DNA of 31,815 bases from a virus (lineage: Duplodnaviria; Heunggongvirae; Uroviricota; Caudoviricetes). The notes beneath the pieces were generated by a model, which had not been told where the DNA came from, did not search any database, and worked only from the letters and a program-made list of their open reading frames with translations. The stretch is from the IMG/VR virus record IMGVR_UViG_2872152978_000007, one strand, 5' to 3'. A program made the translations under genes and the position numbers. The first letter of the stretch is position 1. Each line of letters opens with the position of its first letter. Below are positions 22,899-25,821 of the stretch, piece by piece.

Positions 22899-23616
22899 CA
22901 TGGTTCGGCCGGAGCAAGAAGCATCGCCACAATGGCAACCCGGAGAGGCTACCAGATGGGACGCTGGCTTGCTGGCAGGCTCATGAAAGAGCTGGGGCTG
23001 GTCAGCTGTCAGCAGCCGACTCACCGGTATAAACGTGGTGGTCATGAACATGTTGCTATCCCTAACTACCTTGAAAGGCAGTTCGCCGTGACCGAGCCAA
23101 ATCAGGTGTGGTGCGGTGATGTGCCCTGTATCTGGACGGGTAAGCGCTGGGCGTACCTCGCCGTTGTTCTCGACCTGTTCGCAAGAAAACCAGTGGGCTG
23201 GGCCATGTCGTTCTCGCCGGACAGCAGGCTCACCATGAAAGCGCTGGAAATGGCATGGGAAACCCGTGGTAAGCCCGGCGGGGTGATGTTCCACAGCGAT
23301 CAGGGCAGTCATTATACGAGCAGGCAGTTCCGGCAGTTATTGTGGCGATACCAGATCAGACAGAGTATGAGCCGGCGCGGAAACTGCTGGGATAACAGCC
23401 CAATGGAACGCTTCTTCAGGAGTCTGAAGAACGAATGGATGCAGGTGGTGGGTTACGTAAGCTTCAGCGAGGCAGCTCACGCCATAACGGACTATATCGT
23501 TGGATATTACAGCGCACTAAGACCGCACGAATATAACGGTGGGTTACCCCAAACGAATCGGAAAATCGATACTGGAAAAACTCTAACTCGGTGGCCAGTT
23601 TTTGTTGACCACTTCA
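22899..23616 (+). mobile_element. IS911 fragment (5'-truncated; 3' part of orfB plus right terminal repeat)
   Basis: Homology to the full copy begins near 22899 (...CCATGGTTCGGCCGGAGCAAG); ends ...GTTGACCACTTCA at 23616; orfB remnant has C4 at 23547..23550 where the full copy has 5, plus a few substitutions. Confidence 0.85.
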
Positions 23617-23625
23617 ATGGCGACA

Positions 23626-23841
23626 TTATTCACCTCTCGCAGCCTTACGCTTATCTTCTCTTATTTTGAAATACAGATTCGTCAGATAAGTCAGAAGCCC
23701 CAGAAGCAGACTTCCCAGCACACCAATCGCAGCCCACTGTGATGGACTGACCTGATCCAACCACTGCAAAAACCAGTAGCCGGCACTGCCGGCGGAGGTG
23801 CCGTAGGCAATGCCCGTTGAAATTTTGTCCATGGATTTCAT
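23626..23841 (-). CDS. Phage 21-type pinholin (S21-like) with dual-start MKSM motif
   Basis: 71-aa [74 protein letters not shown]; two predicted transmembrane segments; no endolysin gene follows (IS911 fragment begins 9 bp after the stop). Confidence 0.85.
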
Positions 23842-24133
23842 AGCCTCACCTCCGCAAATAACGGATGGCGTAGTTTTACACTGAGAAATGAAAGGGATTT
23901 GAAAAGAAAAAAACGCAAAAGCGGGCGAAACGATATATACAGTAAGGAAAGCACTCTATCCAACAAACCACCCACAGTTAATCGGAATAAAAGCAGAGTG
24001 CTTATGAATGATCGCACGCCCGAAGGTTAGTATTTCTGCACAGCAATTTTGCAAAAAAAGGCGATCATTCATAACTTAAACGTCTTTCAGTCACTCCGGG
24101 ATTTCCCATCATCGCAGACTGAAAGACTCTGAC

Positions 24134-24208
24134 TGGAGCGGGCAGCGGGAATCGAACCCGCATCATCAGCTTGGAAGGCTGAGGTAATAGCCATTATACG
24201 ATGCCCGC
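24134..24208 (-). tRNA. tRNA-Gly (anticodon UCC)
   Basis: Reverse complement GCGGGCATCGTATAATGGCTATTACCTCAGCCTTCCAAGCTGATGATGCGGGTTCGATTCCCGCTGCCCGCTCCA folds as a cloverleaf with GGTTCGATTCC T-arm and CCA end. Confidence 0.85.
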
Positions 24209-24211
24209 ATA

Positions 24212-24287
24212 TGGTGCCGACTACCGGAATCGAACTGGTGACCTACTGATTACAAGTCAGTTGCTCTGCCTGCTGAGCTAAGTCGGC
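24212..24287 (-). tRNA. tRNA-Thr (anticodon UGU)
   Basis: Reverse complement GCCGACTTAGCTCAGCAGGCAGAGCAACTGACTTGTAATCAGTAGGTCACCAGTTCGATTCCGGTAGTCGGCACCA; anticodon loop CTTGTAA. Confidence 0.85.
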
Positions 24288-24289
24288 GC

Positions 24290-24366
24290 TGGCCCACCAC
24301 CGAGGACTCGAACCTCGCACCGTCAACTTAGAAGGTTGATGCTCTATCCGGATGAGCTAGTGGTGG
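24290..24366 (-). tRNA. tRNA-Arg (anticodon UCU)
   Basis: Reverse complement CCACCACTAGCTCATCCGGATAGAGCATCAACCTTCTAAGTTGACGGTGCGAGGTTCGAGTCCTCGGTGGTGGGCCA; 7-bp acceptor stem, anticodon loop CTTCTAA; unusual C1-G72 first pair. Confidence 0.75.
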
Positions 24367-24367
24367 T

Positions 24368-24444
24368 TGGTGGCCCTTGCTGGACTTGAACCAGCGACCT
24401 GGCGATTATGAGTCGCTCGCTCTGACCAACTGAGCTAAAGGGCC
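24368..24444 (-). tRNA. tRNA-Ile2/Met-like (anticodon CAU; ileX/ileZ-like)
   Basis: Reverse complement GGCCCTTTAGCTCAGTTGGTCAGAGCGAGCGACTCATAATCGCCAGGTCGCTGGTTCAAGTCCAGCAAGGGCCACCA; anticodon loop CTCATAA; resembles chromosomal ileX. Confidence 0.8.
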
Positions 24445-24532
24445 GGAGGCAGAATAATAACCATATGTCATCACATCTGCAAACTCATCTGACCACCAGC
24501 ACGTTTAACGTCCTGTGCCGTTTTTCAGGTAT

Positions 24533-24554
24533 AAAAAAACCCGCATAAAGCGGG
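24533..24554 (-). terminator. Rho-independent terminator, minus strand (tR'-like position upstream of tRNAs and holin)
   Basis: Minus strand reads CCCGC-TTTAT-GCGGG followed by 7 T (plus-strand aaaaaaacccgcataaagcggg). Confidence 0.6.
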
Positions 24555-24580
24555 CTCTTTCAAATGTCCATGTGAAGTGG

Positions 24581-25420
24581 TCAACAAAAACTGGCCACCG
24601 AGTTAGAGTTTTTCCAGTATCGATTTTCCGATTCGTTTGGGGGTAACCCACCGTTATATTCGTGCGGTCTTAGTGCGCTGTAATATCCAACGATATAGTC
24701 CGTTATGGCGTGAGCTGCCTCGCTGAAGCTTACGTAACCCACCACCGGCATCCATTCGTTCTTCAGACTCCTGAAGAAGCGTTCCATTGGGCTGTTATCC
24801 CAGCAGTTTCCGCGCCGGCTCATACTCTGTCTGATCTGGTATCGCCACAATAACTGCCGGAACTGCCTGCTCGTATAATGACTGCCCTGATCGCTGTGGA
24901 ACATCACCCCGCCGGGCTTACCACGGGTTTCCCATGCCATTTCCAGCGCTTTCATGGTGAGCCTGCTGTCCGGCGAGAACGACATGGCCCAGCCCACTGG
25001 TTTTCTTGCGAACAGGTCGAGAACAACGGCGAGGTACGCCCAGCGCTTACCCGTCCAGATACAGGTCACATCACCGCACCACACCTGATTTGGCTCGGTC
25101 ACGGCGAACTGCCTTTCAAGGTAGTTAGGGATAGCAACATGTTCATGACCACCACGTTTATACCGGTGAGTCGGCTGCTGACAGCTGACCAGCCCCAGCT
25201 CTTTCATGAGCCTGCCAGCAAGCCAGCGTCCCATCTGGTAGCCTCTCCGGGTTGCCATTGTGGCGATGCTTCTTGCTCCGGCCGAACCATGGCTGATGCC
25301 ATGTAGCTCAAGTACCTGACTGCGTAATACAGCCCGTCTGCCGTCTGGTTTTTCAGGACGGTTTTTCCAGTATCTGTAGCTGCTGCGATGAACCCCGAAC
25401 ACTTGGCAGAGTGTGACCAC
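24581..25420 (-). CDS. IS911 transposase OrfB (expressed as an OrfAB frameshift fusion)
   Basis: ...[62 protein letters not shown]...[18 protein letters not shown]. Confidence 0.9.
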
Positions 25421-25446
25421 AGGATAATGCGCTCTGAGTTTCCCGA

Positions 25447-25749
25447 TTATCGAGAACAGTTCAGGGAGTCTGACATCAAGAGCGCGGTAGCCTTTTTTAA
25501 TATTTCATTCTCCATTTCAATGCGTTGTAGCTTTTTCCTCAGCTTACGTATTTCGATTTGTTCTGGTGTTATCGGAGAGGCTTTTGGTGTTTTGCCCTGA
25601 CGCTCATCACGCAGTTGTTTGACCCATCTTGTCATTGTGGAAAGGCCAACATCCATAGCTTTGGCGGCATCTGCCACCGTGTATTTCTGGTCAACAACCA
25701 GTTGAGCGGATTCGCGTTTAAACTCTGCGCTAAAATTTCTTTTTTTCAT
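25447..25749 (-). CDS. IS911 OrfA
   Basis: [100 protein letters not shown]. Confidence 0.9.
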
Positions 25750-25821
25750 TGGAGCACCTGTGTTGTTCTGAGGTGAGCATATCACCTCTGTTCAGGTGGC
25801 CAAATTCAGTGTGCCACTTCA

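What the first reader, a model, noticed from the sequence alone, without database searches (positions are those of the whole stretch)
22899..25821. Orphan lambdoid late-region island: tR'-like terminator, four tRNA genes and a pinholin without endolysin, boxed in by IS911
Reading the minus strand: a strong intrinsic terminator (24554 down to 24533), then four tightly packed tRNA genes (CAU, UCU, UGU, UCC anticodons, 1 to 3 nt apart), a ~290-nt leader, and a phage-21-type pinholin with the dual-start MKSM motif. This is the Q-tR'-tRNA-lysis layout of lambdoid phages, but the antiterminator gene and late promoter are replaced by a full IS911 and the endolysin and spanin genes by an IS911 fragment that starts 9 bp after the holin stop. 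The tRNAs may still be useful to the host; a pinholin without endolysin is a potential membrane-depolarising relic.
Basis: partly seen in the sequence, partly recalled or inferred. Interest (0 to 1): 0.5.

Follow-up and report, generated by a model that had tools for sequence, protein, structure and literature searches.

The report
Stranded prophage tRNA–holin fragment in Shigella
This is a 957-bp leftover of a phage late operon (terminator, four rare-codon tRNA genes, a phage-21-type holin) cut off from its promoter and lysis partners by IS911 in a Shigella dysenteriae chromosome, which is ordinary insertion-sequence-driven prophage decay.

Summary
On the minus strand lie an intrinsic terminator (24562-24532) and four tRNA genes that pass ARAGORN and Rfam. 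Their anticodons are CAU, UCU, UGU and UCC, and NCBI annotates the CAU gene as tRNA-Ile. A 292-nt leader follows, then an intact 71-aa MKSM holin (Pfam "P21 holin S", 68/71 identical to S21). A full IS911 (24573-25821) sits upstream. An IS911 fragment (22898-23616) begins 9 nt after the holin stop, so only 10 nt of the SAR endolysin gene survive.

The window is 100% identical to Shigella dysenteriae CP026840.1. An intact prophage elsewhere carries the same 957 bp with no differences, between a Q-like gene and a SAR endolysin plus Rz. Compared with intact relatives, about 8.6 kb (replication genes to Q and pR') and about 9.4 kb (endolysin to head genes) are missing. An IS911-IS911 inversion then placed an integrase fragment next to the island.

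Ten related strains show no substitutions in the island, and the flanking DNA is equally invariant. Intactness therefore reflects recency and is no evidence of selection. The tRNA/holin cassette downstream of Q is well known. Expression is untested; I infer the island is largely silent. Interest is low.

The parts
22898..23616 (+). IS911 fragment (3' 719 bp: most of orfB plus IRR). The IRR end faces the holin. IRL, orfA and the promoter are deleted, and orfB carries a 1-bp indel.
   Evidence: It forms inverted-repeat arms with the full copy and is 99.4% identical to it by blastn. The truncated end joins the neck gene as phage TTTCAGCC + TA + CCATGGTTCGG of IS911; both parent sequences share TCAGCCAT.
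23617..23626 (-). Stub of the SAR endolysin gene: ATGTCGCCAT, i.e. the start codon (overlapping the holin stop as TAATG), two further codons and one nt.
   Evidence: Relatives continue as MSPSLRKAVAVAIGGG.... That protein is 95% identical to the phage 21 SAR endolysin.
23626..23841 (-). Class II holin/pinholin gene of the S21 type. The dual start is Met1 at 23841 (71-aa antiholin form) and Met4 at 23832 (68-aa holin form).
   Evidence: PF04971 at 121.8 bits. 68/71 identical to S21-71 and identical to WP_000839570.1 in intact prophages.
23842..24133 (-). 292-nt structured leader between tRNA-Gly and S. It contains a 14-bp perfect hairpin (24074-24061 / 24015-24002) and a Shine-Dalgarno-sequestering hairpin (23873-23845).
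   Evidence: Fold z-score -4.07. Inverted repeat I5. The SD hairpin is conserved with phage 21. Covariation was uninformative.
24134..24208 (-). tRNA-Gly (UCC)
   Evidence: ARAGORN; Rfam 64.9 bits
24212..24287 (-). tRNA-Thr (UGU)
   Evidence: ARAGORN; Rfam 69.8 bits
24290..24366 (-). tRNA-Arg (UCU)
   Evidence: ARAGORN; Rfam 56.4 bits
24368..24444 (-). tRNA with CAU anticodon, annotated tRNA-Ile by NCBI (the AUA-reading type whose CAU is lysidine-modified); ARAGORN labels it Met.
   Evidence: ARAGORN; Rfam 70.5 bits; RefSeq annotation of identical copies as tRNA-Ile
24445..24531 (-). 88-nt spacer between terminator and first tRNA. It contains a weak sigma-70-like match, TTTGCA-N18-TATTAT (24483-24454), ending 10 nt before the tRNA.
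   Evidence: Promoter scan, 9 of 12 matches; the number of sites in the region is no higher than in shuffles. The spacer is conserved in all relatives, which are nearly identical anyway.
24532..24562 (-). tR'-type intrinsic terminator: hairpin plus U7.
   Evidence: Folds. It occupies the same position as the annotated phage 21 terminator. The hairpin is swapped together with the Q type while the downstream DNA is shared.
24573..25821 (-). Full-length IS911 (1249 bp), transcribed toward the island, with IRL at 25821 and IRR at 24573.
   Evidence: IR ends and length. OrfA HTH_Tnp_1 and OrfB rve in identical loci. A copy 99.4% identical is annotated 'IS3-like element IS911 family'.
25822..26173 (-). 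N-terminal fragment of a phage integrase gene, cut by IS911. The 147-aa ORF reads through into IRL.
   Evidence: Weak Pfam hits to the Arm-DNA-binding and SAM-like integrase domains. The flank ends in ...TATCAG|IRL, and the same CAG flanks the IRR of the third IS911 next to the integrase C-terminal part.
31441..31815 (+). Start of a third IS911 (IRL and orfA; cut by the window end). It is the inversion partner of the full copy and abuts the first 82 bp of the O-like replication gene.
   Evidence: Matches to IS911. In CP026840.1 it continues as IRR|CAG-ACATTT..., then the integrase C-terminus, ybhA and modC.

Best explanation
The region is a stranded piece of the late operon of a defective prophage. 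The prophage has a lambdoid early region and myovirus-type structural genes, and it sits between ybhA and pgl in Shigella dysenteriae.

In the intact phage, a Q-like antiterminator (DUF1133 family) modifies RNA polymerase at pR' so that it reads through tR'. Transcription then runs through four tRNA genes decoding AUA, AGA, ACA and GGA, which are enriched in the phage's own genes. It continues into the S21-type pinholin, the SAR endolysin and Rz. This mechanism is inferred from phage 21 and from intact relatives.

In this genome, one IS911 lies between pR' and tR' and is associated with loss of ~8.6 kb, from the O-like gene to pR' and including Q. A second IS911 inserted after nt 10 of the endolysin gene. 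It was later truncated together with ~9.4 kb running from the endolysin to the head genes. A third IS911 inserted in int, and recombination with the first inverted the remaining early region.

The structure is shown directly. What follows is inferred. Without pR' and Q, and with tR' standing between the inward-reading IS911 and the tRNAs, the island is probably transcribed little or not at all. Its perfect sequence reflects the youth of the rearrangement, not selection. The holin is a harmless unexpressed relic.
For: All parts were verified.

Source and relatives:
- The window is 100% identical over 16,086 bp to CP026840.1, which is listed as S. dysenteriae.
- The island is identical at 957 of 957 positions to the copy in intact prophage L014, which has a Q-like gene upstream and a SAR endolysin plus Rz downstream.
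- Phage 21 has the same order of elements.
- The terminator is swapped with the Q type, while the DNA 3' of it is shared.

Losses and rearrangements:
- The early region lies in the opposite relative orientation to the island, and the O-like gene is cut at 31440 by IS911.
- The 3-bp CAG duplication is split between two IS911 copies, which is the signature of an inversion.
- The neck gene lies 10.66 kb downstream of the holin in FDAARGOS_943.
- No Q, endolysin or Rz is present in the window.

Other support:
- The cognate codons are 1.7-3.3 times more frequent in the related prophage than in a sample of host genes.
- There are no substitutions in the island across 10 strains, and the neck genes, int' fragment and IS911 are equally invariant.
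- tRNA genes downstream of Q are documented for SfI, Sf6, ST64T and phage 21 (PMC3636060).
- Pinholin function is reviewed in PMC9636201.
Against: Expression was not measured. A weak promoter-like site (TTTGCA-N18-TATTAT) lies just upstream of the first tRNA. The leader in this allele lacks the second terminator-like hairpin seen in some relatives. Some constitutive tRNA and holin transcription therefore cannot be excluded. Read-through of tR' from IS911 transcription is also possible at a low level. The order of the IS911 events is a parsimony reconstruction from junction sequences.
Confidence: 0.8

Rival explanations
1. Domesticated tRNA island. The four tRNA genes are transcribed from the sigma-70-like site at 24483-24454, or by read-through from IS911. 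They are retained because extra AUA/AGA/ACA/GGA-decoding capacity helps express AT-rich horizontally acquired genes, such as virulence plasmid genes, in Shigella.
For: A promoter-like match ends 10 nt before tRNA-Ile. All four tRNAs are intact and score well. The island is kept in all 10 strains examined and in 23 contigs that carry the chimeric int' ORF, despite heavy IS traffic around it. The four anticodons read codons that are rare in host genes.
Against: The number of promoter-like sites in the region is no higher than in shuffled sequence (5 against 3.8 +/- 2.1). The identical sequence sits upstream of a complete lysis cassette in intact prophages. A constitutive promoter with no terminator before S would be hazardous there. 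The flanking pseudogenised DNA is equally invariant, so retention gives no sign of selection. Other genomes have IS insertions or a remodelled tRNA inside the same cassette.
Confidence: 0.12
2. IS911 composite transposon or invertible cassette. The two inverted IS911 sequences mobilise or flip the 957-bp segment as a unit.
For: Inverted IS911 arms of ~719 bp flank the island at 956 nt. Recombination between inverted IS911 copies has evidently occurred nearby.
Against: One copy lacks IRL, orfA and its promoter, and both inner ends are IRR, so there is no pair of usable outer ends. All 10 loci examined have the island in the same orientation and the same flanks, int' on one side and the neck gene on the other. 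A scan of one representative genome per species for the holin/IS911 junction found nothing.
Confidence: 0.03
3. Latent toxin. The orphan pinholin is occasionally expressed and depolarises the membrane, giving an abortive-infection-like or persistence-like effect without lysis.
For: The ORF is intact with its dual start and the SD hairpin. Pinholins collapse the proton motive force by forming ~2-nm heptameric channels (PMC9636201). The allele is the one found in intact prophages.
Against: There is no identifiable promoter. tR' and the leader lie upstream. Triggering needs thousands of molecules per cell. There is no evidence of selection.
Confidence: 0.05

Closest known systems
Late regulatory and lysis region of lambdoid phage 21 (Q21, pR', tR', tRNA-Asn, tRNA-Thr, S21 71/68, R21 SAR endolysin, Rz/Rz1)
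   Same: The order of elements is the same. The holin is 68/71 identical, with the same MKSM dual start and an SD hairpin. The lost endolysin, seen in identical-island relatives, is 95% identical to R21. An intrinsic terminator lies just upstream of the tRNA genes, directly abutting them in phage 21 and 88 nt away here.
   Different: There are four tRNAs (Ile-CAU, Arg, Thr, Gly) instead of two, an 88-nt spacer after the terminator and a 292-nt leader instead of ~120 nt. The partner Q in intact relatives is a DUF1133-type protein, not Q21. In the window itself Q, pR', R and Rz are absent.
The same Ile-Arg-Thr-Gly tRNA plus class II holin cassette in E. coli, EIEC and Shigella prophages (e.g. 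L014, FDAARGOS_944; holin WP_000839570.1)
   Same: Identity is 99-100% over the whole 957 bp. 382 of 5,426 complete E. coli genomes have a place that covers at least 80% of the 1-kb query.
   Different: Those copies keep a Q gene (DUF1133 type or lambda-Q type) upstream and lysozyme plus Rz downstream. Here both sides are IS911.
tRNA genes downstream of Q in Shigella and Salmonella phages (SfI, Sf6, ST64T)
   Same: tRNA genes sit between Q and the lysis genes, and are proposed to supply codons that are rare in the host but common in the phage (PMC3636060). The same codon bias is seen here.
   Different: Those are functional phages with a different tRNA complement (Asn and Thr in SfI).
IS-driven prophage and genome decay in Shigella
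   Same: The window carries multiple IS families: IS911 x3, IS1, IS2, IS600 and an IS66 family element x2. Deletions, inversions and split genes run through the whole prophage. That such decay is typical of Shigella genomes is my own knowledge.
   Different: Nothing differs in kind; this is one more instance.

Membership tests
Phage 21-type class II holin / pinholin (Pfam PF04971) | Sequence match to the family profile above the curated cut-off | tested here: met
   121.8 bits against a cut-off of 26, E=1.1e-35, covering profile positions 1-63 of 64
Phage 21-type class II holin / pinholin (Pfam PF04971) | Dual-start motif Met1-Lys2-x-Met4, giving the antiholin (71 aa) and holin (68 aa) forms | tested here: met
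   The ORF starts MKSMDK, identical to the annotated S21-71/S21-68 starts of phage 21
Phage 21-type class II holin / pinholin (Pfam PF04971) | Two transmembrane segments (a weakly hydrophobic TMD1 and a glycine-containing TMD2) and an intact reading frame | tested here: met
   68/71 identical to S21. The only changes are V46L and F49L in TMD2 and R64K. No stop or frameshift is present. Topology itself was not predicted separately.
Phage 21-type class II holin / pinholin (Pfam PF04971) | Genetic partnership with a SAR endolysin immediately downstream | tested here: not met
   Only 10 nt of the endolysin gene remain in the window, and no endolysin is found by tblastn. The partnership is met in relatives with the identical island, whose endolysin is 95% identical to R21.
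Phage 21-type class II holin / pinholin (Pfam PF04971) | Forms small (~2 nm) channels that depolarise the membrane without releasing cytoplasmic endolysin | not testable with these tools
   This needs expression and complementation assays. The property is known for S21-68 (PMC9636201).
Bacterial tRNA (Rfam RF00005) | Cloverleaf covariance-model score above the gathering threshold | tested here: met
   Four matches at 56.4-70.5 bits against 29. ARAGORN agrees.
tRNA-Ile2 (CAU anticodon modified to lysidine, reads AUA) | Classified as Ile, not Met, despite the CAU anticodon | tested here: inconclusive
   RefSeq annotation of identical copies says tRNA-Ile, while ARAGORN says Met. The acceptor stem GGCCC... 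with C4-G69 and C5-G68 fits the TilS determinants as I recall them. The modification itself cannot be tested here.
IS911 (IS3 family) | About 1250 bp, imperfect terminal inverted repeats TGAAGTGG.../...CCACTTCA, orfA (HTH) and orfB (DDE/rve) with an A6G frameshift site, and a 3-bp target duplication | tested here: met
   Length 1249 bp with the expected IRs. HTH_Tnp_1 and rve products. AAAAAAG is visible at the orfA end. A copy 99.4% identical is labelled IS911 family in RefSeq. The 3-bp CAG duplication is shared between two copies.
Lambdoid late-gene control unit (Q, pR', tR') | Q antiterminator gene and late promoter immediately upstream of the terminator | tested here: not met
   Both are absent from the window. 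In relatives the Q-like gene stops 60 bp before the IS911 insertion point.
Lambdoid late-gene control unit (Q, pR', tR') | Intrinsic terminator between pR' and the first late genes | tested here: met
   Hairpin plus U7 at 24562-24532. It occupies the same position as the annotated phage 21 terminator. The hairpin is exchanged together with the Q type.
Lambdoid late-gene control unit (Q, pR', tR') | Q-dependent read-through of the terminator | not testable with these tools
   This needs in vivo or in vitro transcription assays.

The most novel reading that the evidence does not exclude
The orphaned four-tRNA array has its own promoter and is kept by Shigella dysenteriae as an extra supply of AUA/AGA/ACA/GGA decoders that boosts translation of AT-rich virulence genes. 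On this reading the IS911 events converted a phage late-operon segment into a host tRNA operon.
Probability: 0.08. Interest if true: 0.4.

Novelty: already known. Interest (0 to 1): 0.1.

Why it matters
It matters little beyond bookkeeping. The region documents, junction by junction, how IS911 insertions, adjacent deletions and IS-IS inversions dismantle a prophage in Shigella. It also shows that an intact-looking tRNA/holin cassette need not be functional or selected. It would only become interesting if the tRNAs proved to be expressed and beneficial to the host.

Tried and rejected
- An exact scan of one genome per species for the holin/IS911 junction found nothing. This collection probably represents Shigella only through E. 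coli, so the scan was uninformative.
- A megablast of the neck genes against the phage collection found no match. The E. coli genome collection did give matches.
- The simple terminator scanner did not report the tR'-like hairpin. Folding shows the hairpin is real, and the miss is a scanner artefact.
- The promoter scan gave no excess over shuffled sequence. I therefore do not claim a promoter. I also saw no acceptable -10 element at the right spacing from the outward-facing TTGACC in the IS911 IRR at either junction (read from the sequence).
- I looked for covariation in the 292-nt leader. The four close relatives are almost invariant and the fifth is not homologous over most of it, so nothing can be concluded.
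- A permissive Rfam search of 23500-24700 found nothing beyond the four tRNAs.
- A literature search for ileZ/argN/argO returned only irrelevant papers.
- I rejected the composite-transposon idea because one IS911 lacks its outer end.
- I rejected an assembly artefact because the junctions recur in at least 10 assemblies.
- I rejected selection on the tRNAs as an inference because the flanking pseudogenised DNA is equally invariant.
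Full report
**What is there.** ARAGORN finds exactly four tRNA genes in the 31.8-kb window, all on the minus strand and 1-3 nt apart:
- 24368-24444, anticodon CAU
- 24290-24366, Arg-UCU
- 24212-24287, Thr-UGU
- 24134-24208, Gly-UCC

All four pass the Rfam tRNA model at 56-70 bits against a gathering score of 29. ARAGORN labels the CAU tRNA as Met. RefSeq annotates identical copies as tRNA-Ile. 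That is the AUA-reading isoacceptor whose CAU is modified to lysidine; the modification itself is not testable here.

Upstream lies a hairpin with a 13-bp stem, a 6-bp G/C core and seven U residues, at 24562-24532. It folds at -18.2 kcal/mol, with the core alone at -11.1.

Downstream, after a 292-nt leader, is a 71-aa ORF (23626-23841) starting MKSM. It matches Pfam 'Bacteriophage P21 holin S' at 121.8 bits. It is 68/71 identical to S21-71, differing by V46L, F49L and R64K, with no stop or frameshift. A Shine-Dalgarno-sequestering hairpin precedes it, as in phage 21.

**The IS911 box.** A 1249-bp IS911 occupies 24573-25821. It is transcribed toward the island, and its IRR ends 10 nt before the terminator stem. 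A 719-bp IS911 fragment (22898-23616) has its IRR end 9 nt after the holin stop. Those 9 nt plus the last A of the stop codon spell ATGTCGCCAT. This is the start of the SAR endolysin gene seen in relatives, whose product begins MSPSLRK.... The two IS911 sequences are inverted and enclose 956-957 bp. tblastn with the Q-like protein, endolysin and Rz of an intact relative finds nothing in the window (E>0.5).

**Source.** The window is 100.000% identical over 16,086 bp, without gaps, to CP026840.1 / GCA_002950155.1. A published table lists that assembly as Shigella dysenteriae, with a matching genome size of 4,716,399 bp (PMC12679885; contig length).

**What the intact version looks like.** The annotated phage 21 genome has, in order:
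- Q21
- pR', with the Q-binding element and a pause site
- a 48-nt terminator
- tRNA-Asn and tRNA-Thr
- S21 71/68
- the SAR endolysin
- the spanins

The exact 957-bp island, with no differences, occurs in locus L014. There it sits between a DUF1133 protein (with a weak Phage_antitermQ hit) and a 165-aa lysozyme plus Rz. That lysozyme is 95% identical to R21.

The same cassette also follows lambda-Q-type genes in other loci. In the alignment, those loci have a different terminator hairpin at the same position. Everything from the T-run onward is shared. The hairpin therefore belongs to the Q-specific module, which is what is expected of tR'.

In the DUF1133-type relatives the Q-like gene stops 60 bp before the point where IS911 sits in the window. 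The late promoter must lie in that 60 bp and is absent from the window. 382 of 5,426 complete E. coli genomes have a place that covers at least 80% of the 1-kb query. Isolated phages and APEC O1 show the same Q-tRNA-S-R-Rz plan. tRNA genes downstream of Q in SfI, Sf6, ST64T and phage 21, together with the rare-codon explanation, are already in the literature (PMC3636060). The codons read by the four tRNAs (AUA, AGA, ACA, GGA) are 1.7-3.3 times more frequent in the genes of the related, more complete prophage than in a small sample of host genes.

**How the island became stranded.** Three events can be reconstructed.
- *Loss of the lysis and head genes.* In FDAARGOS_943 the first neck-region gene retained in the window (22888 downward) lies 10.66 kb downstream of the holin. 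That interval includes a ~1.26-kb IS600, so about 9.4 kb of phage DNA is missing here: endolysin, Rz, terminase, portal and head genes. The truncated IS911 end joins the neck gene at a spot where IS911 and the phage share TCAGCCAT. This suggests an illegitimate deletion that removed the left part of the IS together with the phage DNA (inference).
- *Loss of Q and pR'.* The window's early region (YdaE', Rha/Ash, cI-like repressor, cro, YdaT) aligns to the intact prophage in the opposite relative orientation to the island. The O-like gene is cut after 82 bp at 31440 by a third IS911. In L014 coordinates, 706-9268 is missing. That is 8,563 bp covering the helicase gene, the nin-like genes, the Q-like gene and pR'.
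- *Inversion.* The junctions read intN'...TATCAG|IRL-IS911-IRR|CATGGACA (tR') and O'...GGCTG|IRL-IS911-IRR|CAGACATTT (intC', followed by ybhA and modC). The 3-bp CAG expected from a single IS911 insertion in int is now split between two IS911 copies. This is the signature of homologous inversion between inverted copies. Undoing the inversion gives a collinear prophage with IS911 in int and IS911 replacing O'...pR'.

The integrase fragment now next to the IS is a secondary consequence.

**Spread and age.** The chimeric int'-IS911 ORF is present on 23 contigs. In ten loci examined the island has no substitutions, and only a 5-bp indel near 24524 varies. The neck genes, the int' fragment and IS911 itself are equally invariant, with 0-3 mismatches each. 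Conservation therefore carries no information about selection. These strains do differ by further IS66-, IS1- and IS600-associated rearrangements.

**Function now.** The structure is shown; expression is inferred. IS911 transcription runs toward the island but meets tR' with no Q present. The IS911 fragment on the other side has lost its promoter end. I saw no usable hybrid promoter at either IRR junction (sequence).

A weak sigma-70-like match (TTTGCA-N18-TATTAT, 24483-24454) ends 10 nt before tRNA-Ile. However, promoter-like sites in the region are no more frequent than in shuffled sequence. The identical sequence also precedes a complete lysis cassette in intact lysogens, where a real constitutive promoter without a terminator before S would be dangerous.

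I therefore consider the island largely silent (about 0.8) and host use of the tRNAs possible but unsupported (about 0.1). A pinholin alone would depolarise the membrane if made in thousands of copies (PMC9636201). Nothing suggests that it is made.

**Verdict.** The object is a well-understood cassette in a well-understood state of IS-driven decay, in a public genome. It is already known and of low interest.

Noticed in passing
window 29132-29322 (-): Rfam finds a C4 antisense RNA (78.6 bits) and an isrK Hfq-binding RNA (63.8 bits) side by side. They lie at and just upstream of the start of a Rha/Ash-family ORF (28532-29236). This looks like a P1/P7-style antisense-controlled antirepressor module inside the lambdoid early region.
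   Followed up: partly
window 1-2353 (+) and 17833-20276 (-): Two IS66-family copies lie in inverted orientation. They separate the tail-sheath gene (DUF3383) into an N-terminal part (20257-20622, -) and a C-terminal part (2353-3492, +). In other strains (L016-L019) a single IS66 simply interrupts the gene. In this genome the ~15.5-kb tail module has therefore been inverted between IS66 copies.
   Followed up: partly
window 22243-22274: A perfect hexanucleotide repeat, (ACCGAT)5.3, lies inside the DUF4054 neck-gene region. Across strains, the neck region shows almost no substitutions but has three indels totalling ~20 nt, and the ORF calls differ (151, 158 or 344 aa). Whether those indels fall in this repeat was not checked.
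   Followed up: partly
window 5326-7346 (+): The tail lytic-transglycosylase gene, a single 673-aa protein in FDAARGOS_943, is split here into two ORFs of 336 and 332 aa. This indicates point-mutational decay in addition to the IS damage.
   Followed up: no
window 23912-23913 (leader); L028 and L026 leaders: Relatives (APEC O1 and phage vB_EcoS-689R5) have a second terminator-like hairpin, CCCGC-TTTT-GCGGG followed by a T-run (-11.5 kcal/mol), ~100 nt before S. In the window, and in L002, GG is replaced by TT and the hairpin is almost lost (-3.3 kcal/mol).
   Followed up: partly
L002 6366-6437 (FDAARGOS_943): In this otherwise 99% identical cassette, the fourth tRNA carries four substitutions and a 1-nt deletion. 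It is called tRNA-Val (UAC) instead of Gly (UCC). It is either a remoulded tRNA or a decaying one.
   Followed up: no
L007 and L012 (leader, equivalent to window ~23952-23955); L004 403-1648: Other E. coli/Shigella-type genomes have independent IS insertions inside the same cassette. One lies between the tRNAs and S, with the 4 nt at the insertion point present on both sides of the IS. Another is an IS600 in the endolysin gene.
   Followed up: partly
window ~24524; L016-L018, L021-L025: Eight of the ten related loci carry an extra 5 bp (ATGAA) between the terminator and the first tRNA. The window, L019 and the intact L014 lack it.
   Followed up: no
L016 5225-7051 (not in the window): In related strains an IpaH-type effector gene (LRR_TTSS plus NEL domains, 608 aa) lies at the tail-fibre end of this prophage, next to pgl. 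The element is therefore one of the prophage-borne ipaH islands. The integrase end abuts ybhA and modC.
   Followed up: no
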